Translations under genes and position numbers: made by a program
Shown: positions 28,037 to 44,438 of the stretch, piece after piece
How positions within the stretch are numbered: the stretch's first letter is position 1
How the letters are laid out: each line of letters opens with the position of its first letter
Source: a phage
Direction: 5' to 3' (one strand)
Sequence record: PZ715803.1
Length of the DNA: 51,987 nt
Notes under the pieces: model-generated
Databases searched by the model: none
Seen by the model: only the letters and a program-made list of their open reading frames with translations
What the model was told of the DNA's origin: nothing

Positions 28037-28038
28037 GA

Positions 28039-29742: not shown

Positions 29743-29753
29743 TATCAAACCTA

Positions 29754-30192: not shown

Positions 30193-30246
30193 CGTTTTAT
30201 CTCCTTCGTTGAAAGTGAGGCCATTATACCTGGCCCCACATTTGAG

Positions 30247-30265
30247 TTTTAACAAAAAGTGCTAT
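30247..30265 (-). promoter_or_regulatory. 19-bp element copy, then 21 bp, then TATAAT
   Basis: Exact consensus element and consensus -10 hexamer. Confidence 0.6.
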
Positions 30266-30414
30266 TTCTTAATACATAGCGTGTGAGTGTACGCATAAAA
30301 CCTGTTGTTGTTCTTGATCTGCTCTCGCGCCTCAATGCAAGATTGCTGGCTATTCATTTCGATATGGTCAACGCCGCCATCAATCATAAGAATCAGCAAA
30401 ATCCAGGTAGCCAT
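30262..30414 (-). CDS. Small hydrophobic protein (about 50 aa, below ORF-track cutoff)
   Basis: ATG with GAGGTGAGAG upstream; stop codon TAG lies inside the element copy. Confidence 0.3.
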   Translation of the reverse strand: MATWILLILMIDGGVDHIEMNSQQSCIEAREQIKNNNRFYAYTHTLCIKK

Positions 30415-30490
30415 CTCTCACCTCAATAAAAGCTAAACAGGTAGGCAAACAATCCGATCCATGCGGCGACGTGCGCCGCAGTGAGCAAAC

Positions 30491-31384
30491 TCAAATCTTC
30501 ACCTTCCACTTAACCATCGTTCCGCGCTTGATGCTGATCTCACCCGCAACAGTCCGGTTTTTAGTGCCGCCGTAGTGAAGCAGGAGAATAACAACATCAT
30601 CATGAATCTCGATCGTCTTTGGTGTAGCCGTTAATTCATACCATGTGCCGTCATCAAGCCGGACTCCTTTTAGCGTGGCTGCAACTGGCATATCTTCAAT
30701 CGCGCCCTGCGTTACGATTTCTTGATAGGCAAAGGCGCTCTTATCAATACGCCAGCCTCCAGGCGCTTTCATTTCGGCAGCCGCTTTGTGGATCTCCTCG
30801 CCAATGATTTTTTGAATTGACGTCTTTCCGCCGCCGAATGGAGTTTCTCCAAACAAGTGTTTTGTAATGTCTTCCACGTAGTACACTTTATCCTCTTCGT
30901 TGTGCGGATTGAATTTGTTGTGACCGTTGACAAAGAAATCAACTTTCAACTCTGATTTCGTGCCATCGCTATAAACGCCATTGTCGCGCGATGTGTAGCG
31001 AATCGTTGACTTACCAGTCGTGTGGAACGTGATCGGATACTTGATATTATCCACGCTTAAGCACCACAGCTTTTTGTAGTCGCAGGTTTTCATGTGGACC
31101 ATCGGAATCTCTGCGCGTTCCGGTGAGCGCACTGGTAACACCTGGCCCTTATATGGCTTGTAGTGCAAACATGTGTAGCCTGGCATTGCATAGCCATAGT
31201 CTTTAAGGGCGTGGTAGTGCGTATTGTGTGCATCAATAAAGTGTTCAATCTCCATTGTTGATGGGCTTAGTTTGTCGCTATTCATATCAACCTTATGGCA
31301 TGTTTTTTCATCGGTAAAAATGTAATGACCAATGCCGCGAGATTCGAAGGTGATCGGGAATTTAATGTCAGCAAGTTTTAACAT
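30491..31384 (-). CDS. Hypothetical protein with internal tandem duplication
   Basis: 297 aa; repeated IK(F/Y)PITF..G module at residues about 7 and 115. Confidence 0.75.
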   Translation of the reverse strand: MLKLADIKFPITFESRGIGHYIFTDEKTCHKVDMNSDKLSPSTMEIEHFIDAHNTHYHALKDYGYAMPGYTCLHYKPYKGQVLPVRSPERAEIPMVHMKTCDYKKLWCLSVDNIKYPITFHTTGKSTIRYTSRDNGVYSDGTKSELKVDFFVNGHNKFNPHNEEDKVYYVEDITKHLFGETPFGGGKTSIQKIIGEEIHKAAAEMKAPGGWRIDKSAFAYQEIVTQGAIEDMPVAATLKGVRLDDGTWYELTATPKTIEIHDDVVILLLHYGGTKNRTVAGEISIKRGTMVKWKVKI

Positions 31385-31463
31385 GGTGCTTTCTCCTGAT
31401 TGGTTTTGTGGGCGACGCCGTGCCGCCCTATGTGATTTATTATGCCTGGTTATCGCTTTCGAG

Positions 31464-31482
31464 TTTTAACAAAAAGTGCTAT
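31464..31482 (-). promoter_or_regulatory. 19-bp element copy, then 22 bp, then CATAAT
   Basis: Exact consensus; directly downstream of the stop of 31483..31668. Confidence 0.55.
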
Positions 31483-31668
31483 TTAGAATTTTACCTCTTC
31501 CACAAGCTCAACCATCTTGTAACCAAGACGATAAGAGTCACCGAACAACAAGATCCCCATAAATTCATCGTGGCTTATTGACTCTTTGCCAACCGTTCTA
31601 AGCTCTCCGTTGTGAATCACAGTATCGCCGATCTTGATTTCTGATTTATGGACTAATTTCGTTTTCAT
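31483..31668 (-). CDS. Hypothetical protein
   Basis: 61 aa. Confidence 0.55.
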   Translation of the reverse strand: MKTKLVHKSEIKIGDTVIHNGELRTVGKESISHDEFMGILLFGDSYRLGYKMVELVEEVKF

Positions 31669-31683
31669 TTATTCACCCGCTAA

Positions 31684-31869
31684 TTAAAAGAAAGCTACAT
31701 AGTTTGCAATGCCTTTTGCGTCGTCGTTTGGCATTGCTTTTACAGCCAGGTCATAACCCGCCTCTACCTTCTGCTTTGCTGTTTCTTCGTTGTAGCCCCA
31801 GATAACCAGGATTTTAACTACGTTTTCTTTGTTCAGGACTTTAAGGTCTTTGGTGATGCGACGTGCCAT
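31684..31869 (-). CDS. Hypothetical protein
   Basis: 61 aa; element promoter with hairpin and CATCGAAAC leader upstream. Confidence 0.6.
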   Translation of the reverse strand: MARRITKDLKVLNKENVVKILVIWGYNEETAKQKVEAGYDLAVKAMPNDDAKGIANYVAFF

Positions 31870-31926
31870 TTTTGTTTCCTCAATCTCGTTTCGATGAGGC
31901 TATTATGCCAGGCTTTGCGCCTGGCG

Positions 31927-31945
31927 TTTTAACAAAAAGTGCTAT
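31927..31945 (-). promoter_or_regulatory. 19-bp element copy, then 22 bp containing hairpin GCCAGGC..GCCTGGC, then CATAAT
   Basis: Exact consensus; stop codon of the upstream lipoprotein gene embedded in the element. Confidence 0.55.
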
Positions 31946-32202
31946 TTAATATCTGTTGTGACTTGCTGGTGCATTACGTTCTTTCCGCTGTTGTACGTGC
32001 TATCCGTTGCGCCTTTGCAATTGGTGTAATAGATCGCGCGACCGTTATCATAGAATCTGTATGCTGTGCATCCGTCAACAGTGAACAGGCGACCGACTTT
32101 GAAATCTGACTCCACGCCTACGACAACCGTTGATTCTGATGCCTTTTCGCATCCGGTCAGGAGTGTCATTGCCGCCAAAACGCCGATTAATGCCTTTTTC
32201 AT
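31942..32202 (-). CDS. Lipoprotein (second predicted lipoprotein; candidate receptor-masking / superinfection-exclusion protein)
   Basis: Signal peptide with lipobox LTGC; two additional Cys. Confidence 0.7.
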   Translation of the reverse strand: MKKALIGVLAAMTLLTGCEKASESTVVVGVESDFKVGRLFTVDGCTAYRFYDNGRAIYYTNCKGATDSTYNSGKNVMHQQVTTDIK

Positions 32203-32666
32203 TATTGCTCCTCCTCTTTGATGATTTCGCGGATCATATCCTGGTAGCGGCTTACGCCCTCACAAGCTCCAGCCAGTTTATCCCCTTCCAGGTCCACGAT
32301 GTTCGGGATTGCTGCCAGTAAGCGATCGGCAAACTTTTTGATCGCCCTTGCCTTGATGGCTGGCAATTCTTCGGGTGTGATGATTTTCCTTTTCGATTCG
32401 CGCACCATGCGGAAAACGTAAAATTTATCATCTTCCGTTTCCTCGACCTTGATACTTACCCGACCTGCGGCCCTTACTTCTGGAACGCGGTTGATAATGG
32501 TCCGGCTGTAGGATGAACTGCGCGTGATCTTGTAGCAGTCGTCACCGCTTAACATTCCGGCCAGGTCAATTAGTGACATTTTATACTCTTCAATATCGCC
32601 ACTAGCCAGGCGGCGACCAAGCTCGCGAAGCCAATCGCAATAGTCCTTAGTGGTCTTCTGTTCCAT
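32202..32666 (-). CDS. Hypothetical early protein (first gene of leftward early operon)
   Basis: ATG 32666 with GGAGG RBS downstream of a near-consensus sigma70 promoter. Confidence 0.65.
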   Translation of the reverse strand: MEQKTTKDYCDWLRELGRRLASGDIEEYKMSLIDLAGMLSGDDCYKITRSSSYSRTIINRVPEVRAAGRVSIKVEETEDDKFYVFRMVRESKRKIITPEELPAIKARAIKKFADRLLAAIPNIVDLEGDKLAGACEGVSRYQDMIREIIKEEEQ

Positions 32667-32697
32667 TTCCTTTCCTCCAGTTGTTGACTGTTGGCGC

Positions 32698-32725
32698 ATT
32701 ATAAAAGCTATTTGGTGCGTGTCAA
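32698..32725 (-). promoter_or_regulatory. Near-consensus sigma70 promoter (TTGACA-16 bp-TATAAT) for the leftward early operon
   Basis: Both hexamers consensus, read on minus strand about 30 bp upstream of the first early gene. Confidence 0.55.
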
Positions 32726-33159
32726 TGTTTTTGTTGTATTCAAAACGTTACCAATATCGAAAAACTACAAAATCATGCGCAAGTTATTGATTTCGCGGCT
32801 GTTATTTTTCTGTTCACGCTGTTAACGCAATCCGCCGGAAAAAGTATATATACATATGCAATCCGCCGCGCGCGCAACTATCCATATATGCCCACACACA
32901 ACCACACCATAACCAACAAAAAGCACTGTAACAGTGAGAACAAAAAGAAAACATTATAGATATATATAAATAAATAATCTTTATTTTCAATGTATTATAG
33001 AGGGATTTTTTTGTTTTTTCCGTTTTCGCTACACCGGAAAACCGCGCGGAAACATGCCGCCTGAAATCGGTAACAGGGGTGAACAAAAGACAACAACCAC
33101 TGACAGCCAGGCAAAAAAGTGAGGCAAGAGGGGAAGGTTTCACTATCTCCCCTGCAACC

Positions 33160-33250
33160 AATGATTAAACGTGATTGCTTTTCTCATCAAATTTGCAAAG
33201 GCAATCATCATTTTGACGTGATTTGATTACGAATGATTACTTTTGATTAT
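33160..33250 (+). repeat. Cluster of TGATT(A) direct repeats at 10-11 bp phasing (iteron-like)
   Basis: TGATTAC, TGATTAC, TGATTAT at about 33224, 33234, 33244, plus TGATTA/TGATTG at about 33160-33180. Confidence 0.45.
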
Positions 33251-33280
33251 TTCTATCGCAATCCTGGCGCTAACCGTCAA

Positions 33281-33299
33281 ATAGCACTTTTTGTTAAAA
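33281..33299 (+). promoter_or_regulatory. 19-bp element copy, then 22 bp, then TACATT; promoter of the rightward early operon
   Basis: Exact consensus; CATCGAAAC leader and GGAGA RBS follow. Confidence 0.55.
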
Positions 33300-33358
33300 C
33301 TCAGGCCACCTGATCGGGTACATTGCACACATCGAAACGAACCGCTCAGGAGATAGCA

Positions 33359-33631
33359 ATGAACATCAGCAAAACCACTTTCAATTTCGCCAAGCGTCAC
33401 GGTCTGGATCTGACTGTTGAAGATTTTGGCGATGTTCTGCAACTCTGCATTTGGGAAGCAGATAACGATTGCGAGTGGCTTTGCTCTTATCGCATCAACT
33501 ACGATTGCTTGACCTGGCACGGCAATATCTATCTGCCGCAAGAAGTGAAAGAAGAATTGCCAGCGACTATCAACAACGAGGTTTTCTTGCGTCAGGTGCT
33601 GAAATTTATCAGTGAGGAGATCAAGAAGTAA
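33359..33631 (+). CDS. Hypothetical protein
   Basis: ATG 33359 with GGAGA RBS (ORF-track start 33323 is upstream). Confidence 0.6.
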   Translation: MNISKTTFNFAKRHGLDLTVEDFGDVLQLCIWEADNDCEWLCSYRINYDCLTWHGNIYLPQEVKEELPATINNEVFLRQVLKFISEEIKK

Positions 33632-33897
33632 TGGCGGTGATTACCGAAAATGATTTGGATCTGGCGGAGGCGTTTTGCAGGGCCGCCAGGGCTAACCTGG
33701 ATGTGATGACTAAATTTCTTCCGGCGCGCACACTCTTTTCATGTGCGCCCGTGAATAAACCGACTCGCGTGATGATCGTGATTGAAGGTGATGGCCTGTA
33801 CGCTGAAAAGACGTTCCACATCAGCAACATTAAGGGCCGTGCTGATTTTATCAATGATGTTTGCTTATTGCAGGAGAAGAAAAAATGTTGGATGTGA
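33631..33897 (+). CDS. Hypothetical protein (shares F-INxVC motif with next gene)
   Basis: 88 aa; start overlaps upstream stop. Confidence 0.6.
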   Translation: MAVITENDLDLAEAFCRAARANLDVMTKFLPARTLFSCAPVNKPTRVMIVIEGDGLYAEKTFHISNIKGRADFINDVCLLQEKKKCWM

Positions 33898-34094
33898 TCA
33901 AGAAAGCACATGAGATGGGTATGGATGTTTCAATCAGTGATGCGCAACGCTATAACCGCTCAATGCCTGAAAACATGGTTGTAGTCATCGTGCATAATCA
34001 TAAGTTTGAATGCCGCGCAATTCTTGAGCGTGACAACAAAGGGGCGCAAAGCAATTTTATCAACGAAGTCTGTGATCTGTATGGGCGTATCTGA
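33885..34094 (+). CDS. Hypothetical protein (paralog-like to 33631..33897)
   Basis: ATG 33885 with AGGAGA RBS. Confidence 0.55.
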   Translation: MLDVIKKAHEMGMDVSISDAQRYNRSMPENMVVVIVHNHKFECRAILERDNKGAQSNFINEVCDLYGRI

Positions 34095-34095
34095 A

Positions 34096-34308
34096 ATGTT
34101 CAAGAAATTGTTATGGCTGTACCGCTCCAGGCGCAACAAGGGATATTGCAGGGGCACGGAAAGGAATCTTGACCGCGCTTATAAATACTGCCTGTTATTG
34201 CTCGCCAGGATGCCGGAAAACAGGAAGGAATATATTGCACTGCGGGAAATAACAATGCGGATATATAGTTACCGCAATAAACTATACGTCTTTAAATCTT
34301 TACGATAA
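34096..34308 (+). CDS. Small Arg-rich basic protein (uncertain)
   Basis: ATG 2 nt after upstream stop; no clear RBS; fills the gap to 34321. Confidence 0.3.
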   Translation: MFKKLLWLYRSRRNKGYCRGTERNLDRAYKYCLLLLARMPENRKEYIALREITMRIYSYRNKLYVFKSLR

Positions 34309-34320
34309 GGAGTAATAACC

Positions 34321-34584
34321 ATGAAAATTAATGCACCTATTCCAGTTAAGCGCAAAGCACGTTTGCTCAACAACGGATGTTACGCCCTGCGGCCTGCATT
34401 TAAGGATCGCACATTTCCGGTTATCGTTAACGTGTCTCACGTAAGCCGTAGCGGGAATATGGTATTCGTTAAAGGTGAAGATCTGACGGCGCTTGGATTC
34501 TATGGCGGTGTTCACGGCGAACCGCTCGGATTCTGGCTTGTAGATCTGTTAACTGGAGAGCGTGAAATCGAATTCTTGGACTAA
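34321..34584 (+). CDS. Hypothetical protein
   Basis: AAGGAG RBS; 87 aa. Confidence 0.7.
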   Translation: MKINAPIPVKRKARLLNNGCYALRPAFKDRTFPVIVNVSHVSRSGNMVFVKGEDLTALGFYGGVHGEPLGFWLVDLLTGEREIEFLD

Positions 34585-34603
34585 ATAGCACTTTTTGTTA
34601 AAA
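34585..34603 (+). promoter_or_regulatory. 19-bp element copy, then 22 bp, then TACATT
   Basis: Exact consensus immediately after the stop codon of 34321..34584. Confidence 0.55.
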
Positions 34604-34661
34604 CTCAATCCTCGTATTCCTGTACATTACACGCATCGACAACGAATGCGAGGATTTGAAA

Positions 34662-34814
34662 ATGGTTACTCTGATTACCTGGGAACACGAAAACAGCCAG
34701 CCGGAAGCGCGCGAATTTGAAACCGTAGCCGCTTGTTACAACCTGGCGAAAAATGGCGGATTCTACAAGGCGCAAATCGTTAACGAGTTTGGAGTTGTTG
34801 ACTATGAGTTCTAA
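34662..34814 (+). CDS. Small hypothetical protein (50 aa, below ORF-track cutoff)
   Basis: ATG with GAGGAT RBS right after the element promoter; overlaps next start. Confidence 0.45.
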   Translation: MVTLITWEHENSQPEAREFETVAACYNLAKNGGFYKAQIVNEFGVVDYEF

Positions 34815-35094
34815 GTTTTACAGCTACACCGACACAGTTGATTTTGAGGGGATACAATTGCCCCTCCCAAATATATACCGCTATATCACTCGTGACGAGC
34901 GCGGATTTATTGAAGCCTGGCGCGCTAAGCCAGTGCGGGATCTTGAATTTGGCGGCTTCCGTTCGCTTGAAGGTGAATTGCCGATCTGCTTTGGTCATCA
35001 AAGCGGTGAAAGCCTTCCTGTTGTTGCGCGTAAGTATCGCCGCCACAAGATCACAAGGCAACTTATCTCTTTAACTGGAAAAGTTGTTGAATAG
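34804..35094 (+). CDS. Hypothetical protein
   Basis: ATG 34804 with GGAG RBS. Confidence 0.55.
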   Translation: MSSKFYSYTDTVDFEGIQLPLPNIYRYITRDERGFIEAWRAKPVRDLEFGGFRSLEGELPICFGHQSGESLPVVARKYRRHKITRQLISLTGKVVE

Positions 35095-35109
35095 CACTTT
35101 TTGTTAAAA
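35091..35109 (+). promoter_or_regulatory. 19-bp element copy, then 22 bp, then TGgTATATT (extended -10-like)
   Basis: Exact consensus; stop codon TAG of the upstream gene inside the element. Confidence 0.55.
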
Positions 35110-35165
35110 ACGATGTGCGCCTGAATGGTATATTACACCCATCGACAACAAGAGAGGATTTAAAG

Positions 35166-35363
35166 ATGGAAAATCATGTTGATGTTAAAGTTGTTAAGCG
35201 CGACAAGTCTCACGAAAAAGGTTTGTTTAAGAAAGGTGCTGAAATCACCATTGACCTTGATGATATGGAGGCGTACCACTCAGGGCTAACTTGGAACGTG
35301 CGCAAATGTGAAAACGGCCTGTTCAAGTTAAATGGCTTTGAAACATACATGGAGATCATTTAA
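35166..35363 (+). CDS. Hypothetical protein
   Basis: ATG 35166 with GAGGAT RBS. Confidence 0.6.
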   Translation: MENHVDVKVVKRDKSHEKGLFKKGAEITIDLDDMEAYHSGLTWNVRKCENGLFKLNGFETYMEII

Positions 35364-35644
35364 TGGCATACGAAAAGAATGATTTCAATAGCGCAAGAGA
35401 AAAAATCAAGGCAGCGCGAATTAAACAGCGTGCCTTTAGATTCTGGCTGGACTATCGCGATCTAAGAAAAGAGATGGATACGCTCATTAAGACTGGTAGC
35501 GCATTCTGCTCTAATAGAACGGTTTGGCGAAATATGAATGCGCAGTACGGCCAGGGTAAAATTCGTGTATTTGGCGGCGCTGTTGATGCTTATGTATTTA
35601 GCGCAACAAGGGCTGTAAGTTTTAACGTAACTGGGATCGCATAA
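35363..35644 (+). CDS. Hypothetical protein
   Basis: TAATG overlap with upstream gene. Confidence 0.6.
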   Translation: MAYEKNDFNSAREKIKAARIKQRAFRFWLDYRDLRKEMDTLIKTGSAFCSNRTVWRNMNAQYGQGKIRVFGGAVDAYVFSATRAVSFNVTGIA

Positions 35645-35856
35645 TGGCAAAGCAATTAAAACTTAAATGCGTAGAAACTTATAACTCAATTTGGAAATTT
35701 ACGCGCGAAAAAGAATATCCACTAATGGGAAATCTCAAAGAAGATCCTCATGTAATTTCAGATAATGGTATTCACCTTTATTTGATGGAATACAACGATG
35801 GGTATATTGGCGCTGGTCTTCCAGGTCATAAATTTAAGCTGAAAAATAAGAAATGA
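35644..35856 (+). CDS. Hypothetical protein
   Basis: TAATG overlap with upstream gene. Confidence 0.6.
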   Translation: MAKQLKLKCVETYNSIWKFTREKEYPLMGNLKEDPHVISDNGIHLYLMEYNDGYIGAGLPGHKFKLKNKK

Positions 35857-35964
35857 GGCTATTTATTTTCAAAAACGCTTGGATGGTGGCGGTTGCAAAT
35901 GACCATTACGGCGGCGACGGAAAAAGAGCGCCACGTCATTCATATTTCAATTGAGGATATTTAA

Positions 35965-36192
35965 ATGAAAGCAAAAGTTTTAAACATTATGGCAACTATT
36001 GACGCTCATCACCGCGTGGCTGTAAAACTTGATAAGTCCTGCGGAATTAGCCAAATCACTATCACCGAGGGCAAAGGCGGCTATCTTATTGGCATCCATC
36101 CAGGCGGCAAGGTGCGCAAATACAATAAAGATCAGGTAAAAGAATTACTGGAAGAAAACGCTTTCTATATTCAAAGTTGGCGCGCTCTTTAA
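35965..36192 (+). CDS. Hypothetical protein
   Basis: 75 aa; GAGGAT RBS. Confidence 0.6.
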   Translation: MKAKVLNIMATIDAHHRVAVKLDKSCGISQITITEGKGGYLIGIHPGGKVRKYNKDQVKELLEENAFYIQSWRAL

Positions 36193-36202
36193 TTAATCTG
36201 GC

Positions 36203-36219
36203 GGCGTTTTGCCGCCTTT
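36203..36219 (+). other. Hairpin GGCGGCG-TTTT-GCCGCC followed by TTTTAAATG (weak terminator / attenuator)
   Basis: Inverted repeat with T-run. Confidence 0.35.
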
Positions 36220-36234
36220 TAAATGAGGTGAAAA

Positions 36235-36351
36235 ATGATGGATAAAGCTATTGATTTCTTTTTTTATTCGATTATTGGCGCGGCTGGCTTTTTGGTTACT
36301 GCTGCTGGCCTGGCTATTATCTTGGTTGTTATTAAGGAGATTATGCGATGA
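36235..36351 (+). CDS. Small membrane protein (38 aa, below ORF-track cutoff)
   Basis: GAGGTGA RBS; single hydrophobic helix; stop overlaps next start. Confidence 0.45.
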   Translation: MMDKAIDFFFYSIIGAAGFLVTAAGLAIILVVIKEIMR

Positions 36352-36572
36352 GTCAAGACGGATTTTTTGAACGCCTTCAAATGGCAGAAGATGCCGGACT
36401 AAATAAAGAGGCTGCGCTTGAAGTGGCATATAAAATTAAGCCTCTTGATGAGGCTTTAGGTGATATGGATATGGATCTTGAATCAAGCGCAATATTTGCA
36501 GATCCCACTATGATTGTTAATGATTGTGGATGCGATTTCGATCCTGGTTGTGCGCGCTGTTTTCCGTTTTGA
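36348..36572 (+). CDS. Hypothetical acidic protein with Cys-rich C-terminus
   Basis: 74 aa; C-terminal CGCDFDPGCARC. Confidence 0.6.
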   Translation: MSQDGFFERLQMAEDAGLNKEAALEVAYKIKPLDEALGDMDMDLESSAIFADPTMIVNDCGCDFDPGCARCFPF

Positions 36573-36582
36573 GGTAATTACG

Positions 36583-37293
36583 ATGTATAAAGGTTTAATA
36601 TTCTCCCTATTTGATGGATCTGGCAAAGCCGTTAAAGATTGGGCTGATAATGGCTATAAGTGCATTTGCTTTAATGCTGACGGTGGCGATCACGGTGATT
36701 ACCAGTCAGTGCGCATACAGCATGAGAATATCGAATACGTTAACGTCTGGATTGATGAAAGATTTTACCACCGCGCGCGCTGGGAGGAATGGGGCATTCC
36801 TGACTTTATTATGGCATTTCCGCCGTGCACCGACCTTGCAAATAGCGGATCTCGCCATTGGGCCAAAAAACGCCTTGAGAATCCATCGTTCCAGGATGAG
36901 GCCGCCGACACTTGCAGAATCGCGGCTGATATAGCTGATTATTTCGGTGTTCCTTACATGATCGAAAATCCGGTTGGCAAGTTGTCAACGTTATGGCGAA
37001 AGCCTGATTATACGTTCCATCCGTGCGATTACGCTGGCTATCTGCCGGAAGATGATAAACATCCCGACTTCCCTGATATTATTCCGGCACGGGATCGCTA
37101 TTTTAAGAAAACGTGCCTCTGGACTGGCAACGGCTTTGTTATTCCTCCGCGCGCTTTAATCCTGCCGAAAGAGGAAGACAAAGATAATCCAGGCTGGGCC
37201 AAAACTGGCGGTAAGTCATCGCGCACAAAGATGATCCGCTCCCTCACTCCGCGCGGATTTGCTCGCGCCGTCTTTGAGTCAAACTCAAAATAG
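36583..37293 (+). CDS. Putative DNA (cytosine-5)-methyltransferase-like protein
   Basis: FDGSGK (motif I-like), FPPC (catalytic Pro-Cys, motif IV-like), ENPVG (motif VI-like); ATG 36583 with GAGGT RBS. Confidence 0.5.
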   Translation: MYKGLIFSLFDGSGKAVKDWADNGYKCICFNADGGDHGDYQSVRIQHENIEYVNVWIDERFYHRARWEEWGIPDFIMAFPPCTDLANSGSRHWAKKRLENPSFQDEAADTCRIAADIADYFGVPYMIENPVGKLSTLWRKPDYTFHPCDYAGYLPEDDKHPDFPDIIPARDRYFKKTCLWTGNGFVIPPRALILPKEEDKDNPGWAKTGGKSSRTKMIRSLTPRGFARAVFESNSK

Positions 37294-37308
37294 CACTTTT
37301 TGTTAAAA
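37290..37308 (+). promoter_or_regulatory. 19-bp element copy, then 22 bp containing hairpin GCCAGG..CCTGGC, then CATAAT
   Basis: Exact consensus with stop codon TAG of the MTase gene embedded. Confidence 0.55.
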
Positions 37309-37362
37309 GCCAGGTGTAAAAACCTGGCATAATCACATCGAACAAACAAAGGAGATCTGATC

Positions 37363-37749
37363 ATGAATGTTATCTGTAATGAAACCAAAGTATTGATGAA
37401 AGGCCGTTTTAAAACGGTTTATCAGAAGATTGCAGGAAGTGATGATGTGATCGAGGTGGAAGAGTTCCAGGTTAAGACGCTTGTTAAGGGTAGCCGCTGG
37501 CTTCCAGCAAACCGAGATGATTACCGCGCCATTAACACAAAAACCGTTCTTTGCACGTTTGTAGATCATAACATGCCGTGCAAAAAGCACTTTAAGCAGG
37601 GCAAGCGATACCAGATCGAGAAAGGGCGACCGCTTGGAAGCGTTGCGGGTTATGTTTTTGATGAGTGCGGCGACCGCTGGAACCTGTACCGTGAAGAGGT
37701 CGGATTCTCTGCTGGCGGCTGTTATCTGTTTGAGGGCAAATATCTGTGA
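37363..37749 (+). CDS. Hypothetical protein
   Basis: 128 aa; AAGGAG RBS. Confidence 0.7.
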   Translation: MNVICNETKVLMKGRFKTVYQKIAGSDDVIEVEEFQVKTLVKGSRWLPANRDDYRAINTKTVLCTFVDHNMPCKKHFKQGKRYQIEKGRPLGSVAGYVFDECGDRWNLYREEVGFSAGGCYLFEGKYL

Positions 37750-37967
37750 TAAACAGTGAAAACCGTTACAAAGTAACGCATTCTACCACAAAGACTTTCA
37801 AGCCTGGCGATATAGTCAGGCCCATCAAAAAAACGGCGGTAGGTTGGCTGATTGGTTTTTCATATCATAAGGCGCTTTACTTTACGTTTAAGGATGGGAT
37901 TACAGGAGAATGCTACAGCGACCGCCAGCCTGATCGACTTCTGGTTGCAATAGAGCGGATCAAATAG
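37746..37967 (+). CDS. Hypothetical protein
   Basis: 73 aa; overlapping start. Confidence 0.6.
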   Translation: MINSENRYKVTHSTTKTFKPGDIVRPIKKTAVGWLIGFSYHKALYFTFKDGITGECYSDRQPDRLLVAIERIK

Positions 37968-37982
37968 CACTTTTTGACAAAA
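37964..37982 (+). promoter_or_regulatory. Element variant with TTGACA (ATAGCACTTTTTGACAAAA), then 22 bp, then TAAAAT
   Basis: Single T-to-C change creates a consensus -35-like hexamer. Confidence 0.5.
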
Positions 37983-38035
37983 CGGGGTAGTATTGGGCCG
38001 TTAAAATTTACGGCCCACAAAGGAGAAGCTAACGA

Positions 38036-39616
38036 ATGTTTTCATTAGAAACGAACAAATTAACTCCACAGCAAATAATCGCTATGGCTGAAAGCCAGAA
38101 CCTTTCACCAGTTCGCGTATCAATTCAGGCTAACGGCTATCGCCAGTCGTCCAGCTTTTGGGGCGACGTGAAGGATGTAAATAGCGGTCACGATCGCTAC
38201 CCCGTTATTTCTCTTGGTAATGATATTGATGTTGTCGGCAAGCTATCACGCAGCATTGCGCGATCCGTTCAATTCCCTGAATCATCGGCTTACATGCACT
38301 TTATCGGCTGCATTTCTGCCGCTATGCTTGGACGCTTTACGGTTGACTATCACGGAACAGATCAGCCGACTGCGCTTTACGTCGTTACAAGCCAGCCGCC
38401 GTCAACTGGTAAATCTGCGATCAACAGCATGGCTATTGCTCCGATGATTGCGGAAGTTGAGAAGATCAACGAGCAACGCCGCAAGGAAAGAAAGAAAATA
38501 CAGGCAAAGTTGGCAGGTCTTGCAAAGGAGATGAAAAGCGAAAGGTCCGGCGCTGATATGGAATCTCTATACCAGGAAAAAGAGGATCTGGAGGAGAAGC
38601 TGGAAAAGATGTGTGATATAACTTTCCCTGTTTCAGATACAACTCCAGAAGGCTTGGCGAAAATCAACAACAAGCAAGGTAACTTTGCCGTAATATCTGA
38701 CGAAGCAACAAGTATTAACAGTCTGTTAGGCTTGACCTATGCAAATAGCGAAAGGAAGACTAACAGTGAGCTAGTGCTTAAGGCGTGGGATAATGGTCAC
38801 GTATCAATTGCCCGTGCTAATGCCGACAATAATATGAGTTTTCGCGCGCTTGGATGTATGAGCGTTATAGCACAGGATGAAACGATAAGCGGAATCATGG
38901 ACGCTGGATCGCGCGGTATCGGTGTGAGTGAGCGCTTTTTGTTGGTCCGCGAAGAATCATTCTTAGGCCGTCGCTCATTCATTGATGAAAATGGTGATTC
39001 TACCTATGAGGCGGTGGATTCTGAATTGAAAGCCCAATATTATCAATTGGTGCATAACATCATGAGCGAATCAAATATATCGCTGAAAATAAGCCGCTCA
39101 GCTATGCGAGTGCTCAACATTGCTCGCCAGGATATGGAACCGCATCTTGCAGACGGCGGAAAGTATTCTCATACAATGTTACGCGGTGCGCTGGGTAAAA
39201 TGGATAAACAGGTGATCAGGCTTGCTTCCGTCCTGCATGTTATCCGCAACTGGTTTAATCCTGCTGGATACCCGCAGAAGTCGAAAGAGATCGACGTGGA
39301 AACAATGCAAGAGGCGCTGATCATGTTTCAGGAATTGAGCAAAACATACATTAGCGCCGCCAATGCTTCTGGTTATGCTGGTGATGATGCTGAAATGGGC
39401 AAATTGATTGAATTGATCACTAGACACGGCAAGGCTAATAAAGGGATTCTGAATATTCGCGCCCTGTACGAATCAGCGAGAAAGGTAAAACCTTTCGTTG
39501 GTCAAGCTGGCGTAATGAAGAGGATAGAAGGGCACTTGCTGCCAATGCTGGAAGAAAGAAATTATGTTTGTGTTATTAATGGTGTTATTTTTGTCAATCC
39601 AATACTGCTGGGATGA
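38036..39616 (+). CDS. P-loop NTPase with Walker A/B (putative replication or recombination ATPase)
   Basis: 526 aa; Walker A QPPSTGKS, Walker B-like AVISDEA. Confidence 0.8.
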   Translation: MFSLETNKLTPQQIIAMAESQNLSPVRVSIQANGYRQSSSFWGDVKDVNSGHDRYPVISLGNDIDVVGKLSRSIARSVQFPESSAYMHFIGCISAAMLGRFTVDYHGTDQPTALYVVTSQPPSTGKSAINSMAIAPMIAEVEKINEQRRKERKKIQAKLAGLAKEMKSERSGADMESLYQEKEDLEEKLEKMCDITFPVSDTTPEGLAKINNKQGNFAVISDEATSINSLLGLTYANSERKTNSELVLKAWDNGHVSIARANADNNMSFRALGCMSVIAQDETISGIMDAGSRGIGVSERFLLVREESFLGRRSFIDENGDSTYEAVDSELKAQYYQLVHNIMSESNISLKISRSAMRVLNIARQDMEPHLADGGKYSHTMLRGALGKMDKQVIRLASVLHVIRNWFNPAGYPQKSKEIDVETMQEALIMFQELSKTYISAANASGYAGDDAEMGKLIELITRHGKANKGILNIRALYESARKVKPFVGQAGVMKRIEGHLLPMLEERNYVCVINGVIFVNPILLG

Positions 39617-40008
39617 TTATGTTTTTGCTTGATCTGTATAAATGGTGTGAGTCATACGACTGGTTTAACAGGCAGCACATAGCCAAATTTATCTATCAGC
39701 ATAGAGAATGCGAGCGGCTCGCACGGGCCGCCGGACTTACGCCGCGAATGTTCGCCAGCCTTGCATCTAAGGAATTTTGCGCAAGAATGATGACGGCTGG
39801 TTATATAGATGGGGTCTGCGGAAAATACTGGTCCAAAGGATCGTCAAAGCGGCCTTTCGGATTCGAATTGTATAGCCTGGATGGTATGCGCAACGACTGG
39901 ATCAGGGATATGGCGAGAATAGGGGAGATGGGCGATGATGAATTGTTCCAGGCAAAAGCTAATAGACAAGATCTTGAAGCACTGCGCCGTAAATTCAATA
40001 TCACATGA
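39613..40008 (+). CDS. Hypothetical protein
   Basis: 131 aa; ATGA overlap with upstream gene. Confidence 0.65.
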   Translation: MIMFLLDLYKWCESYDWFNRQHIAKFIYQHRECERLARAAGLTPRMFASLASKEFCARMMTAGYIDGVCGKYWSKGSSKRPFGFELYSLDGMRNDWIRDMARIGEMGDDELFQAKANRQDLEALRRKFNIT

Positions 40009-40125
40009 GGATTTTATTCATGCTTTACTTACGCTACTTTATTCAGATATGCGCGCTTTTAGCACCACTGAACATGTTTTATGCAATGATGATGGTGTAT
40101 TACTGGTTACGGTAAAGCGTATGGA

Positions 40126-40144
40126 ATAGCATTTTTTGTTAAAA
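40126..40144 (+). promoter_or_regulatory. Element variant (ATAGCATTTTTTGTTAAAA), then 22 bp hairpin, then TATATT; left arm of a 45-bp inverted repeat with the copy at 43369-43387
   Basis: About 30 bp identical to the reverse complement of 43343-43387. Confidence 0.55.
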
Positions 40145-40205
40145 CGCCCGGCCTAGTGTCGGGTATATTTGTTTCATCGAAACGAAACAACCAAAAGGTA
40201 AAATT

Positions 40206-40430
40206 ATGTCCAGCAAGTTTTTAGTAGTTCGCGTATATAATCATGACAACGGATCTTCTGCTGAAATCCCGACAATTTACGACAGGGATTTTGGATGGAG
40301 TGAGCAATCGGCGGTTGAAAATGAGCGCAAGATTGCAGAAATGTACGGCGACACTTGCAGCATTGAAGTAAGGCAGTACGACGAATCGAACAAGCCAACA
40401 AACGAAACTCATATGTGGCCCGACGCATAA
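40206..40430 (+). CDS. Hypothetical protein
   Basis: 74 aa; single-gene unit between element promoter and terminator. Confidence 0.6.
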   Translation: MSSKFLVVRVYNHDNGSSAEIPTIYDRDFGWSEQSAVENERKIAEMYGDTCSIEVRQYDESNKPTNETHMWPDA

Positions 40431-40437
40431 AAATAAA

Positions 40438-40454
40438 GGAGGCATTAAGCCTCC
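40438..40454. terminator. Bidirectional terminator (GGAGGC-ATTAA-GCCTCC plus T-run) at the convergent junction
   Basis: Hairpin overlapping the spanin stop codon; T5CT4 on plus strand. Confidence 0.6.
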
Positions 40455-40840
40455 TTTTTCTTTTCTCTCCAGTAAAGACAAATCAGCACAATTAACACAA
40501 CCACGCATATGATTACTGGATCGTACCATCTGCCGTTATTACCCTGCACGACCTGAATTTTGTCTGCCTTGATGGTATTGGCCTGAATGGTTGATGTTGT
40601 GAAATCCTTCTTGCTGGACGTGTCCACCTTGTCAACCGCAGATTCCTTTATTGTGGTTTTCTGTTTTGTGCTGGCGTCCTGCTTTGCTGTAATGCCAACT
40701 GTCTGCTTCACGTTCTCCGCGCCAGCCTGTGCTGTGATTTCCGGCTTACTGCCGATTAATCCGGTCAGTGGCGTAACGCTTGAACATCCAGACAAGATCA
40801 CCGCCATTGCGATTGGTGCGATTAAAAATTTCTTCATCAT
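40445..40840 (-). CDS. Unimolecular spanin (N-terminal lipoprotein signal plus C-terminal transmembrane helix)
   Basis: Lipobox ILSGCSS, C-terminal hydrophobic helix [16 protein letters not shown]; ATG overlaps endolysin stop. Confidence 0.65.
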
Positions 40841-41328
40841 TTCAGATCCATTGTGCAATATTTGTATTCGACCTTGCGCCTGTTAAGTAAGCCTTTAGAC
40901 TTCTCGCGCTTTCCTGTTTTGGGGTTATGGTAATACGTCCAACGATAAAGCTGATCGCAAGCCTCGTTTAATTTCCCCTGGTTGATGAGTTTCAGCATTG
41001 TTGAATTTCTGAAAGCTCCCACACCTGCATTGTAAGTGAATGAGTACATTGCTGCACGCATACTATCAGGAATGTCAACCTTAACTTGCTTGTCAACTTC
41101 CTTTTTAGCAACCTGGATATGCTTAGCCAACAAAGCATCACACTCTTTTTTAGTGTACGTTTTCCCCAGGATAACATCTGGTCCGGTGATTCCTGCGCAA
41201 ACCGTCCATACTCCAGCAATATCTTTGTATGGCTTGTATCTTACCCCTTCGATCTCTTCAAGAAGTGGAGAAGTCAAGGCAACCGCAACGCCAAAGGCCG
41301 CCGCCGCCACCCTGTTCTTGATGCTCAT
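40837..41328 (-). CDS. Endolysin, phage lysozyme (GH24-like) with N-terminal signal-anchor-release (SAR) domain
   Basis: Catalytic E-x8-D-x5-T arrangement ([19 protein letters not shown]); N-terminal weakly hydrophobic Ala/Gly-rich helix. Confidence 0.8.
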
Positions 41329-41543
41329 TACTTGCCCCTGATTTCAATAGCTTTTTGAATATCACCTTTTTCGATCGCCTCGTGGAATTTTTTACTATCA
41401 CGCCAGCGAAGGTAAGCACCCCACGCACCGAATGCAGCCATTAAAACAAAGCTGGCAATAGCAATGGTTAACTGACCTGTAGCGGCGCTTGCGATAGATG
41501 AACCGCCAGATCCGGCTGTAGCTGCGTTAATAAAATCTTTCAT
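41328..41543 (-). CDS. Holin (pinholin-like, two transmembrane segments)
   Basis: 71 aa, Gly/Ala-rich hydrophobic segments and charged C-terminus; stop overlaps endolysin start. Confidence 0.6.
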
Positions 41544-41689
41544 TTTTAATGCTCCATATTAATTAAAGTCAATATATTAACCGCATAATAAACGCACATG
41601 ATAAAAATTTAAACAAAAAAAAGAGGCGACAAACGCCGCCCCTTTGCAAGTTTTTGATTTAATTTGTCATTGATTTAAATAAAAATTCA

Positions 41690-42805
41690 TCAATTCATCA
41701 TTTCTGGATAGTGAACAAATCGCCCAACTTCTCCATGCTCTTTGTCGTAAATGATAACCGCTGCACGGCGTCGAGATCTCCAGCCACCGCGCGCGGCGTA
41801 TGCGTCTTTTGCCGCCAGGGTGCTATGTACCTCCACGATCCCAAGCGACGTTTCCGTCACGGTCTGGTGATGCCAGTGCCCTACGTGCGCATACATCGTT
41901 TTTGAGTTTCCGAAGTCCTCCCGCCAATCTGACGCGCACATCATTAGCAAAGTCTCAGGTTTGCGCACTGTGTGCCCGTGATGGTACGCAAGGAAAGTTT
42001 TTCCGTATTGCGTGTGGTGAACAACGCGAGGAGAAACATCAACGTAAACGCGCGGCTCGTTCTCATATGCTGCCGCCATTGCTGCGCGTAGCCAAATCAT
42101 TCCTGATTGGTCGTGATTGCCCTCAACGATCTGGACCTCAACATGTTTATGCTTTAACAGCATTTTATTAATTGCGCGGCGCATTGCACGTATTGCAACG
42201 TAAACCAATTTTGCATATCGGCTATCTTGATCAAGTACGTGACCGCTTGCAGGGGTCACAGCCTCCAGGCCATCGCTATGAAGCATGTCGCCACCAATCA
42301 GGATAACAGCCTTTTCACTGTCAGGTGCGCACATCAAAGCATAGTCGATAAAGTTATTCATAACGCGCTCCGCCGTCGCAGTATCCCAATTTTCGCCGCA
42401 CTCGTGCTTATGGGCCATAGCGCCTAAGTGCATGTCAAAGATCGGATACAATGAAAGCGTTTCATTATAGTCACGCTCCTGCAATGGAACTGGATCTAAT
42501 CGCGGCACTTCCTCGCTAAACGCCTCCATTGCTGCGCGCATCAATGCTTCTAGTTGCTCTTTATCCTTGCTGGTTTTGGTCCACTTGAGGATTATGTTTC
42601 CTTCTTTGTCAGTCATTACTGACTCACCATGAACACCAAAACCAGGCGCTCCGATGGTTGATAACTGTCCTTGCTTTGCAAGACGCGCCGCGCGACGCTC
42701 GACGCTTCTCACATTCATTCCGTACTCTTGAGCGATCTGTTTATATGTCTTACCTGCCGCTCGTTCGATCTTGAATTGCTCATCTGTAATTTTTACATTT
42801 TTCAT
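41690..42805 (-). CDS. Calcineurin-like metallophosphoesterase with N-terminal helix-turn-helix domain
   Basis: DxH, GDxxHxD, GNHD motifs; N-terminal HTH-like segment TYKQIAQEYGMNVRSVERRAARL; ATG 42805. Confidence 0.75.
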   Translation of the reverse strand: MKNVKITDEQFKIERAAGKTYKQIAQEYGMNVRSVERRAARLAKQGQLSTIGAPGFGVHGESVMTDKEGNIILKWTKTSKDKEQLEALMRAAMEAFSEEVPRLDPVPLQERDYNETLSLYPIFDMHLGAMAHKHECGENWDTATAERVMNNFIDYALMCAPDSEKAVILIGGDMLHSDGLEAVTPASGHVLDQDSRYAKLVYVAIRAMRRAINKMLLKHKHVEVQIVEGNHDQSGMIWLRAAMAAAYENEPRVYVDVSPRVVHHTQYGKTFLAYHHGHTVRKPETLLMMCASDWREDFGNSKTMYAHVGHWHHQTVTETSLGIVEVHSTLAAKDAYAARGGWRSRRRAAVIIYDKEHGEVGRFVHYPEMMN

Positions 42806-42899
42806 TCTGCTACCTATCTCATTACTATATGGTACATAACTGTAACAGCGATGATAACGGGTAACGGTAGAACAAACAAGCGCCACATGATAACTATCC

Positions 42900-43142
42900 T
42901 CATTTATAATATTTGCGAGGCTCTCGGATTTTAGTCATTGCCTCTTTGAAATCAATTTTTGTTGGAACTGCTGGAACTCTTACCATTTTTCGCGGCCTTT
43001 CCTTGAGGAAAGTCATCTTGTCGCCGCTAATTATGCTCACATCTGCAATATCAAAGTATTGCGCGATCTTCTTTATATCGTCGGCAATACCGCATTCTTT
43101 AGCGTGATTCCATACCGCATCTCTTCCTTGCTCAACCTTCAT
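42900..43142 (-). CDS. Hypothetical protein
   Basis: ATG 43142 overlapping the upstream small ORF. Confidence 0.5.
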   Translation of the reverse strand: MKVEQGRDAVWNHAKECGIADDIKKIAQYFDIADVSIISGDKMTFLKERPRKMVRVPAVPTKIDFKEAMTKIREPRKYYK

Positions 43143-43311
43143 GCTTATAATATGCCTCCGCTTGTTCAATTGGCGCGTGACCGTATGCAACTTTCAGTAA
43201 AAACATTGCGATCTCCCAATCAAACTGGAATCCTTCCTTTGAACCTCCCTCTACTGAACCTTTTGCTGCCTCTTGAGCAAGATTAAAAGCGCGTTTATCG
43301 AATACCACCAT
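43132..43311 (-). CDS. Small hypothetical protein (59 aa, below ORF-track cutoff)
   Basis: ATG with GAGGAA RBS directly downstream of the element promoter at 43369. Confidence 0.45.
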   Translation of the reverse strand: MVVFDKRAFNLAQEAAKGSVEGGSKEGFQFDWEIAMFLLKVAYGHAPIEQAEAYYKHEG

Positions 43312-43368
43312 TTTTATTTCCTCATGTTTGCTTCGTTGAAATAATTATGCCCGACACTAGGCCGGGCG

Positions 43369-43387
43369 TTTTAACAAAAAGTGCTAT
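43369..43387 (-). promoter_or_regulatory. 19-bp element copy, then hairpin, then CATAAT; right arm of the 45-bp inverted repeat; candidate promoter of the lysis-containing operon
   Basis: Exact consensus; stop codon of 43387..43644 abuts the element. Confidence 0.55.
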
Positions 43388-43644
43388 TAGTGGATCATTC
43401 CGTGCTGAAAATTCCACGAATCGACAAACTCTTGCATGTCATTTCTTATTTGTTCGTGCCATTTTTCAAGCGGGAGTTTTCTTGTCTCCTCAAAGCTCAT
43501 ATCTAATGCGCTTGAAAATTCCCACGGATCGCAATCAATCATCTTTTTCACGTTAGGGTTTTTATCAAGTGCATCGCACACCATAGCGCGAAATAACAAC
43601 CATTCGCCAGTTTCATTTAAATAAACGCTTCTCTCTTTTTTCAT
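43387..43644 (-). CDS. Hypothetical protein
   Basis: 85 aa. Confidence 0.6.
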   Translation of the reverse strand: MKKERSVYLNETGEWLLFRAMVCDALDKNPNVKKMIDCDPWEFSSALDMSFEETRKLPLEKWHEQIRNDMQEFVDSWNFQHGMIH

Positions 43645-43648
43645 CGTG

Positions 43649-44374: not shown

Positions 44375-44438
44375 TTCATTTCTCCGCTATTAAAAGCTAT
44401 CTCGTGTTATTGAATTATGGCGCAATCCATCGCGCCAG

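What the first reader, a model, noticed from the sequence alone, without database searches (positions are those of the whole stretch)
36583..37293. Compact cytosine-C5 methyltransferase-like protein in addition to Dam
A 237-aa protein with FDGSGK, FPPC and ENPVG segments resembles the SAM-binding, catalytic Pro-Cys and ENV motifs of m5C methyltransferases, but it is too short to hold a typical target-recognition domain. Together with the Dam-like enzyme (43649..44374) the phage would methylate both A and C, a broad anti-restriction strategy. Alternatively this is an RNA or nucleotide methyltransferase, or it hypermodifies cytosine.
Basis: partly seen in the sequence, partly recalled or inferred. 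Interest (0 to 1): 0.5.

Follow-up and report, generated by a model that had tools for sequence, protein, structure and literature searches.

The report
Known compact phage cytosine-C5 DNA methyltransferase
This gene encodes the small "Dcm-like" cytosine-C5 DNA methyltransferase of T1-like coliphages, whose near-identical orthologue has already been shown to make 5-methylcytosine and to trigger the bacterial retron Ec86/Eco1 defence, so the finding is correct but already known.

The parts
36583..37293 (+). CDS of the compact Dcm-like cytosine-C5 DNA methyltransferase (236 aa + stop)
   Evidence: ORF and translation. phrog_757 E=2e-84. 100% identical to the phage atuna protein. 91% identical with no gaps to KarlJaspers bas06_0055 'Dcm-like C5 cytosine methyltransferase'. 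AF2 model pLDDT 87.8 with C5-MTases as best structural matches.
36571..36574 (+). Shine-Dalgarno GAGG, 8-nt spacer to the ATG; overlaps the TGA stop (36570-36572) of the upstream gene
   Evidence: Read directly from the sequence and conserved in KarlJaspers. K42 retron-escaper mutants carried a point mutation 9 bp upstream of the dcm start codon. That position would fall in or next to this element (inference).
36610..36624 (+). Motif I (SAM binding), F10-D-G-S-G14
   Evidence: G12, S13 and G14 are invariant and F10/D11 >=90% conserved in 39 homologues. This segment aligns with DNMT3B 'SLFDGIATG' and with the start of Pfam PF00145.
36820..36828 (+). Motif IV, P80-P81-C82 (catalytic cysteine nucleophile)
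   Evidence: C82 is invariant in both the 39- and 81-sequence alignments. It aligns with the DNMT3B and M.HhaI Pro-Cys. C82 is the residue mutated in the inactive K42 Dcm mutant.
36964..36975 (+). Motif VI, E128-N-P-V131 (ENV variant)
   Evidence: E128 is invariant and N129/P130 >=90% conserved across the broad family. E128 was mutated in the inactive K42 Dcm mutant.
37090..37110 (+). Motif VIII-like segment R170-D-R-Y-F-K175-K176, just before strand 177-182
   Evidence: D171 and Y173 are invariant, R170 is kept in 36/39, K175 in 38/39 and K176 in 37/39, but R172 in only 1/39. K175/K176 were assigned as substrate-binding residues by superposition on DNMT3A in the K42 study. Strand position from the AF2 model.
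37138..37206 (+). Short variable stretch (residues 186-208) between conserved blocks; the only room for a target-recognition element
   Evidence: Column composition is variable and includes an indel. It contains the lowest-pLDDT block of the C-terminal half (63, residues 201-210). Only two conservative differences from KarlJaspers, L192T and E198D. Its role in recognition is inferred, not shown.
37237..37272 (+). Motif IX-like helix segment R219-S-L-T-P-R-G-F-A-R-A-V230
   Evidence: R219 to R224 are invariant in 39 homologues. By eye it resembles M.HhaI motif IX 'RKLHPRECARVM' (M.HhaI sequence verified). Profile methods could not confirm this, so the assignment is an inference.
43649..44374 (-). 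Second methyltransferase: Dam-type N6-adenine DNA methyltransferase (241 aa)
   Evidence: Pfam PF05869 Dam, E=9.7e-62, 208 bits against a cutoff of 28.1. The syntenic gene in KarlJaspers is annotated 'Dam-like N6-adenine methyltransferase'.

Best explanation
The gene encodes an active, SAM-dependent DNA cytosine-C5 methyltransferase of the compact phage 'Dcm-like' family (PHROG 757). The inferred mechanism is the standard C5-MTase one: C82 of the Pro-Cys motif attacks C6 of a flipped-out cytosine, E128 of the ENP(V) motif protonates N3, and the methyl group passes from SAM (bound by FDGSG) to C5. The enzyme keeps only the catalytic Rossmann-type domain. About 35 residues separate the motif-VIII strand from the motif-IX-like helix, where ordinary bacterial enzymes carry an 80-100-residue target-recognition domain; its nearest structural relative is the DNMT3 catalytic domain. 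During infection it methylates DNA. The phage's benefit is probably protection of its ~127 CCWGG sites from EcoRII-type restriction, especially in dcm-negative hosts such as E. coli B, working beside the Dam enzyme that covers GATC. This benefit is inferred. The cost has been shown for the orthologue: its methylation of the stem-loop of retron Ec86/Eco1 msDNA is sensed by the host and activates the retron's abortive-infection effector. The gene is dispensable in the laboratory, since escaper phages delete or frameshift it.
Against: The window protein itself gets no Pfam or NCBIfam hit, and sequence matches to solved C5-MTases are only marginal (E~0.05). No profile method could align the C-terminal half to canonical enzymes, so motifs VIII to X are not securely mapped. 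The second Arg of the canonical RxR motif is not conserved: R172 is Ala in 31/39. CCWGG specificity was assumed by analogy with host Dcm and supported only by msDNA mutants that lose defence. The experiments were done in dcm+ MG1655, where host Dcm did not activate the retron, which sits awkwardly with an identical specificity. The anti-restriction benefit is unproven: the BASEL study found no simple link between MTase genes and RM resistance. Nothing was measured on this exact phage.
Confidence: 0.9

Rival explanations
1. It is a DNA C5-methyltransferase, but its specificity or substrate preference differs from host Dcm's C(m5C)WGG. It might methylate the outer cytosine, use a shorter or relaxed site, or prefer hairpin or single-stranded DNA. 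This would follow from recognition by a minimal loop instead of a full target-recognition domain.
For: Specificity was assumed, not mapped, in the accessible study. Host Dcm in MG1655 left msDNA with low 5mC and did not trigger Ec86, whereas the phage enzyme did. AATGG, ACTGG and CATGG variants of the msDNA site all abolished defence, so both cytosines matter. There is no detectable sequence kinship to E. coli Dcm (hhalign probability 1.1%). No canonical TRD is present.
Against: CCWGG is not avoided in the genome while unprotected palindromes are. Close relatives were isolated and propagated on MG1655, which carries McrBC (established knowledge), so extensive R-m5C methylation seems unlikely (inference). 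Overexpression versus native host Dcm levels could explain the msDNA result without any difference in specificity.
Confidence: 0.3
2. It is a cytosine hypermodification enzyme like CmoX. It would transfer a carboxymethyl or other group from a SAM analogue to C5 as a handle for further modification.
Confidence: 0.03
3. It is an RNA (tRNA or rRNA) m5C methyltransferase or a nucleotide-level methyltransferase, not a DNA enzyme.
Confidence: 0.03
4. It is a catalytically dead remnant that acts only by binding DNA or host factors.
For: No curated family model recognises it. It lacks a canonical TRD and apparently the motif-X helix.
Against: The catalytic Cys and Glu are invariant over more than 80 diverse homologues. 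The model is confident and complete. Catalytic-site mutations abolish both 5mC formation and retron triggering in the orthologue.
Confidence: 0.02

Closest known systems
Dcm of Escherichia phage K42 / KarlJaspers (Bas06_0055), the phage trigger of retron Ec86 (Retron-Eco1)
   Same: Same length (711 bp, 236 aa) and 91% identity without gaps. Same catalytic residue positions (C82, E128, K175, K176). Same gene neighbourhood and same phage family, Drexlerviridae.
   Different: 22 substitutions. Eighteen lie in residues 23-116, outside the invariant columns, and only L192T and E198D fall in the variable stretch. This phage is closer to vB_EcoS-95, atuna and FritzSarasin than to KarlJaspers. No experiment exists on this exact protein.
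DNMT3A/DNMT3B catalytic domain (eukaryotic de novo C5-MTases)
   Different: Only 14-19% identity. DNMT3 domains are ~280 aa and work as oligomers with DNMT3L or 3B3 on CpG. The phage protein is ~45 aa shorter, and its oligomeric state and target are unknown.
E. coli Dcm / M.EcoRII-type CCWGG methyltransferases (Pfam PF00145)
   Same: Same chemistry (5mC), and the same target has been proposed for the orthologue (CCWGG). The FxGxG, PC and ENx motifs are shared.
   Different: Dcm is 472 aa with a full TRD. A profile comparison detects no significant similarity beyond the Pro-Cys region (probability 1.1%). The window protein does not reach the PF00145 threshold. 'Dcm-like' is a functional label, not a family assignment.
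M.HhaI / M.HaeIII (canonical bacterial C5-MTases)
   Different: These are ~325 aa with a separate small domain (TRD) and a C-terminal motif-X helix. Neither could be identified here.
CmoX, phage DNA cytosine C5-carboxymethyltransferase (PDB 8yf3)
   Different: CmoX uses Cx-SAM through an Arg that replaces the motif-X Asn, and it is linked to CmoA and CmoY. None of the ORFs scanned here resembles those partners, and the orthologue makes 5mC.

Membership tests
Cytosine-C5 DNA methyltransferase superfamily | Class I SAM-MTase (Rossmann-type) catalytic domain whose closest structural relatives are C5-MTases | tested here: met
Cytosine-C5 DNA methyltransferase superfamily | Motif I FxGxG (SAM binding) | tested here: met
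   F10-D-G12-S-G14. G12, S13 and G14 are invariant in 39 homologues. In the wider family the consensus is FDxTG.
Cytosine-C5 DNA methyltransferase superfamily | Motif IV Pro-Cys with the catalytic cysteine | tested here: met
   P81-C82. C82 is invariant in the 39- and 81-sequence alignments and aligns to the DNMT3B and M.HhaI PC.
Cytosine-C5 DNA methyltransferase superfamily | Motif VI ENV (glutamate that protonates N3) | tested here: met
   E128-N-P-V. E128 is invariant and N129/P130 >=90% conserved. It is a variant: ENPV instead of ENV.
Cytosine-C5 DNA methyltransferase superfamily | Motif VIII RxR before the sixth strand | tested here: inconclusive
   R170 is kept in 36/39 but R172 in only 1/39 (Ala in 31). 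K175/K176 are conserved instead. Structural equivalence rests on the K42 paper's superposition.
Cytosine-C5 DNA methyltransferase superfamily | Separate target-recognition domain (about 80-100+ aa) between motifs VIII and IX | tested here: not met
   Only ~35 residues lie between strand 177-182 and R219. Family members are uniformly 210-260 aa and match end to end.
Cytosine-C5 DNA methyltransferase superfamily | Motif X (GN..) C-terminal helix that closes the SAM pocket | tested here: inconclusive
   The protein ends 6 residues after the motif-IX-like segment. No method aligned the C-terminus to canonical enzymes. N234 and G209-G210-K211-S212 are conserved, but their role is unknown.
Cytosine-C5 DNA methyltransferase superfamily | Reaches the Pfam PF00145 gathering score | tested here: not met
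   No hit for the window protein even at E<=1. 21/39 relatives give sub-threshold hits (best 21.9 bits against a cutoff of 22) that cover only profile positions 3-98 of 324.
Cytosine-C5 DNA methyltransferase superfamily | Produces 5-methylcytosine in DNA | not testable with these tools
   Shown by LC-MS for the K42 orthologue and lost in the C82A/E128A/K175A/K176A mutant.
Compact phage Dcm-like methyltransferase (PHROG 757; retron Ec86/Eco1 trigger) | Full-length match to the family profile | tested here: met
   phrog_757 E=2.1e-84, residues 2-235.
Compact phage Dcm-like methyltransferase (PHROG 757; retron Ec86/Eco1 trigger) | Orthology to the characterised K42/KarlJaspers dcm (length, identity, residue numbering, synteny) | tested here: met
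   711 bp in both; 91% identity with no gaps; C82/E128/K175/K176 at the same positions; identical gene order.
Compact phage Dcm-like methyltransferase (PHROG 757; retron Ec86/Eco1 trigger) | Activates retron Ec86 by methylating the msDNA stem-loop | not testable with these tools
   Shown for K42 Dcm. Predicted for this phage by orthology.
E. coli Dcm / EcoRII-type CCWGG methyltransferases | Detectable sequence homology to Dcm | tested here: not met
   hhalign of the family profile against E. coli K-12 Dcm: probability 1.1%, with only 25 columns around Pro-Cys aligned.
E. coli Dcm / EcoRII-type CCWGG methyltransferases | Methylates the inner cytosine of CCWGG | not testable with these tools
   Assumed by analogy in the K42 study and supported only by msDNA site mutants. 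CCWGG is not avoided in the genome, obs/exp 0.95; this is compatible but not diagnostic.
CmoX-type cytosine C5-carboxymethyltransferases | Genomic linkage to CmoA (Cx-SAM synthase) and CmoY-type ligase | tested here: not met
   No such domain among the ORFs scanned against Pfam or PHROGs. Those with hits are Dam, DUF3987, helicase, VRR-NUC, exonuclease, PNKP-HAD, DUF7174, Cro-like, primase, PDDEXK and ERF. Several ORFs gave no Pfam hit, and smaller ORFs were only partly covered.
CmoX-type cytosine C5-carboxymethyltransferases | Arg in place of the motif-X Asn (M.HhaI N304) | tested here: inconclusive
   Motif X could not be located. The criterion comes from PMC12783734.

The most novel reading that the evidence does not exclude
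This roughly 2,000-cluster family of 210-260-aa enzymes may be a minimal C5-methyltransferase architecture that reads its target without a canonical recognition domain and apparently without the motif-X helix. Its real specificity or substrate preference may then differ from host Dcm, for example the outer cytosine, a relaxed site, or hairpin/ssDNA. That would explain why retron Ec86 stays silent in dcm+ K-12 cells but fires when the phage enzyme appears.
Probability: 0.3. Interest if true: 0.45.

Novelty: already known. Interest (0 to 1): 0.15.

Why it matters
This does not open a new question. The gene is routinely annotated as a DNA (cytosine) methyltransferase in hundreds of T1-like and other enterobacterial phages, and its orthologue is a published, mechanistically studied trigger of retron Ec86/Eco1. 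Practically, the annotation can be upgraded from "C5-MTase-like" to "orthologue of the retron-Eco1-triggering phage Dcm". It also predicts that this phage is sensitive to Ec86-carrying hosts such as E. coli BL21. The phage also carries a Dam, and phage Dam enzymes are a second class of known retron triggers. What is still worth doing is base-resolution mapping of the enzyme's specificity and a structure with DNA, because how a ~236-aa C5-MTase without a recognition domain selects its site is not explained by the literature I could read.

Tried and rejected
(1) Curated sequence libraries. Pfam and NCBIfam give no hit for the window protein even at E<=1. Scanning 39 relatives gave only sub-threshold PF00145 hits covering motifs I-IV.

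(2) PDB sequence searches. A single-sequence search, a 39-sequence profile and an 81-sequence profile produced only marginal DNMT3B, HaeIII or DNMT2 N-terminal matches. The broad profile gave nothing meaningful.

(3) Mapping motifs VIII to X by profile alignment. hhalign against E. coli Dcm gave probability 1.1%. Local hhalign of a 100-sequence family alignment against an M.HhaI-family alignment aligned only the Pro-Cys region (E 0.17); the M.HhaI sequence had been verified against PDB 10mh, and the global mode gave nonsense. The M.HhaI homologue search returned only 71-80%-identical sequences, too uniform to help. Motif X therefore remains unassigned. My reading of RSLTPRGFARAV as motif IX is by eye only.

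(4) CCWGG and GATC 'enrichment'. Both appear 1.6-2.3-fold enriched against dinucleotide shuffles. I rejected this as an artefact of a weak null model, because a maximal-order Markov expectation gives ratios of 0.95-0.98.

(6) The published Cell Reports version (pmid 39395169) is not held, so experimental details come from the 2023 preprint and may have been extended in print.

(7) Literature searches for direct methylome or specificity data on this family in Drexlerviridae found nothing beyond the retron work. The PLoS Biol 2025 retron paper concerns the Bas51 Dam, not this protein.

Full report
**Observation.** The ORF at 36583..37293 on the + strand is real. It runs from an ATG through 236 sense codons to a stop, while the opposite strand is full of stops. 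The three cited segments are present at F10-D-G-S-G-K15, F79-P-P-C82 and E128-N-P-V-G132. A GAGG Shine-Dalgarno lies at 36571-36574, 8 nt before the ATG. It overlaps the stop codon of the upstream gene and is conserved in a related phage. A longer TTG-initiated form (36514, 259 aa) is listed mechanically, and one database cluster holds a 257-aa version. That extension would overlap the conserved upstream gene (phrog_9323, E=9e-36), so the ATG start is preferred.

**What the window is.** A 4-kb stretch around the gene is 98.7% identical to Escherichia phages vB_EcoS-95 and JLBYU26, and 97-98% identical to tiwna, tonijn, atuna, FritzSarasin and SECphi27. These are T1-like siphoviruses of the family Drexlerviridae (taxonomy line for the relative KarlJaspers). 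The protein is 100% identical to the atuna "putative site specific DNA methylase". Homologues are encoded in 1,499 of 50,697 phage records, in Drexlerviridae, Klebsiella siphoviruses, Phi1/JSE-type and rV5-type myoviruses and others. They are annotated variously as DNA methyltransferase, Dcm-like C5 cytosine methyltransferase or hypothetical protein.

**Sequence-level family assignment.** PHROGs places the protein in phrog_757, "DNA methyltransferase", at E=2e-84. Pfam and NCBIfam give nothing. Against PDB sequences there is only a marginal match (E~0.05) to the DNMT3B catalytic domain, but that match aligns motif I and the Pro-Cys motif in register. Among 39 relatives, 21 give sub-threshold PF00145 hits (best 21.9 bits against a cutoff of 22), covering only motifs I-IV. 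So this is a divergent branch that curated models miss.

**Conservation.** In 39 homologues (55-83% identity) the invariant columns include G12-S13-G14, P81-C82, E128-N129-P130, D171, Y173, T177, W180, R219 to R224 and N234. In a broader set of 81 cluster representatives (34-57% identity), C82 and E128 remain invariant, and F79, P80, N129, P130, D171, K175, T177, R219 and P223 stay at 90% or more. A profile search of 1.84 billion representatives finds 2,132 clusters at E<=1e-3 and 215 at E<=1e-30. Members are nearly all 210-260 aa and match the profile end to end. The small size is therefore a family trait, not a truncation.

**Architecture.** After the strand at 177-182 only ~35 residues remain before the invariant R219-S-L-T-P-R224 segment. 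Those residues comprise a variable stretch (186-208, with an indel and the lowest confidence of the C-terminal half) and a conserved G209-G-K-S-x-R-T-K216 segment.

By eye, RSLTPRGFARAV resembles M.HhaI motif IX, RKLHPRECARVM (M.HhaI sequence verified). The protein ends six residues later, so the canonical motif-X helix seems to be missing. I could not confirm this. Profile comparisons with E. coli Dcm (probability 1.1%), with an M.HhaI-family alignment (E 0.17, Pro-Cys region only) and with all PDB sequences fail to align the C-terminal half. The canonical RxR of motif VIII is only half conserved: R170 in 36/39 and R172 in 1/39. K175 and K176 are conserved instead.

**Direct experimental literature.** A study of retron Ec86 (bioRxiv 10.1101/2023.08.16.553469; published as Wang et al., Cell Rep 2024;43:114857, citation seen) isolated four escaper mutants of phage K42. 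K42 is a strain of phage KarlJaspers with 95.4% genome identity.

- All four escapers disrupted a 711-bp gene for a "Dcm-like C5 cytosine methyltransferase". [quoted passage not shown]
- Expression of the protein was toxic only in cells carrying Ec86.
- LC-MS showed high 5mC in msDNA with the wild-type protein, but not with a C82A/E128A/K175A/K176A mutant.
- Changing the CCTGG in the msDNA stem-loop abolished defence.
- Of 35 Ec86-sensitive phages, 34 encoded the protein.

The window protein has C82, E128, K175 and K176 at exactly those positions, and the gene is also 711 bp. The protein is 91% identical over 236/236 residues, without gaps, to KarlJaspers bas06_0055. Gene order is the same: a 225-nt gene upstream; 387-nt and 222-nt genes and a ~1.58-kb DUF3987 "helicase" downstream; and Dam, VRR-NUC and a helicase nearby. 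Of the 22 substitutions, 18 lie in residues 23-116. Only L192T and E198D fall in the variable stretch, and none touches an invariant column. Later papers treat this enzyme as the established trigger of Retron-Eco1, whose effector then hydrolyses NAD(P)+. The window protein is therefore an orthologue of an experimentally characterised enzyme.

**Mechanism, and what is shown versus inferred.**

- Shown for the orthologue: 5mC formation in DNA that depends on the catalytic residues, triggering of Ec86, and dispensability for lytic growth.
- Inferred from family chemistry: C82 attacks C6, E128 protonates N3, and the methyl group comes from SAM bound at FDGSG.
- Inferred biology: protection of the phage's 127 CCWGG sites against EcoRII-type restriction, alongside Dam for GATC.

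Consistent with this, a maximal-order Markov analysis shows that CCWGG (obs/exp 0.95) and GATC (0.98) are not avoided. GATATC (0 vs 13.5), GAATTC (3 vs 14.5) and CCSGG (6 vs 21.6) are strongly avoided. The apparent 2.3-fold enrichment of CCWGG against dinucleotide shuffles disappears under this better null model.

The BASEL study found most Drexlerviridae very sensitive to RM systems and saw no simple link with methyltransferase genes.

**Weak point in the literature.** CCWGG specificity was taken over from host Dcm and not mapped. The phage enzyme has no detectable kinship to Dcm. Host Dcm in the MG1655 background used neither methylated msDNA appreciably nor fired the retron. A different or relaxed specificity or substrate preference therefore remains possible; I put it at about 0.3. 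Against extensive R-m5C methylation, close relatives were isolated on MG1655, which is McrBC+ (established knowledge). This is an inference.

**Rivals.**

- A dead enzyme is excluded by the invariant catalytic residues and by the mutant data.

**Verdict.** However, the protein is already known: it is routinely annotated, and its orthologue has been functionally characterised as the retron Ec86/Eco1 trigger. Interest is low. The open questions are the true recognition sequence and how a ~236-aa C5-methyltransferase without a recognition domain reads DNA.

Noticed in passing
whole window 1..51987: Selective palindrome avoidance against a maximal-order Markov expectation: GATATC 0 observed vs 13.5 expected, GAATTC 3 vs 14.5, CCCGG+CCGGG 6 vs 21.6, GGACC 3 vs 10.2, CTAG 33 vs 68. 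CCWGG (127 vs 133) and GATC (305 vs 310) are not avoided. The phage seems to avoid sites it cannot methylate and to tolerate the two that Dam/Dcm-type methylation would protect.
   Followed up: partly
window 43649..44374 (-): The Dam-type methyltransferase (PF05869) belongs to a class that is itself a reported retron trigger: the Bas51 Dam for Retron-Asa1 and -Squ1, and Dam for Retron-Sen2. This phage therefore carries two different methyltransferases of kinds that host retrons are known to sense.
   Followed up: partly
BFVD entries A0A6J5SE15 (1397 aa) and A0A6J5NPY6 (1126 aa), uncultured Caudovirales: The compact methyltransferase fold recurs (27-29% identity, TM 0.63-0.65 over ~236 columns) as one domain of very large phage proteins, one annotated 'Helicase/UvrB, N-terminal'. 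These may be fusions of this minimal MTase to helicase-type modules.
   Followed up: no
window 41690..42886 (-): A 398-aa protein matches phrog_704 'DNA repair exonuclease' (E=8e-149) and has a weak sigma-70 region-4-like helix-turn-helix near its N-terminus. In KarlJaspers the syntenic gene is annotated only as a hypothetical protein.
   Followed up: partly
window 36514..36582 (+): A mechanical TTG start 69 nt upstream gives a 259-aa ORF, and one metagenome-derived cluster representative is a 257-aa version (P0001). The extension overlaps the conserved upstream gene 36348..36572 and lacks the GAGG ribosome-binding site, so it is probably a gene-calling artefact.
   Followed up: partly
phage records labelled Campylobacter phage (e.g. 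MG065680.1 A113, 49,946 bp; MG065687.1 A136): About 20-39 records named 'Campylobacter phage' match this T1-like region at the DNA level (77-81% identity over parts of the gene) and have T1-like genome sizes. This is odd for phages of an epsilonproteobacterium, so host assignment or contamination in those records may deserve a look.
   Followed up: no
window 38036..39616 (+): The 526-aa DUF3987 protein (E=1.7e-44) lies about 740 bp downstream of the methyltransferase, beyond two small genes. It is annotated 'putative helicase' or 'DNA helicase' in relatives. Its function was not examined here.
   Followed up: no
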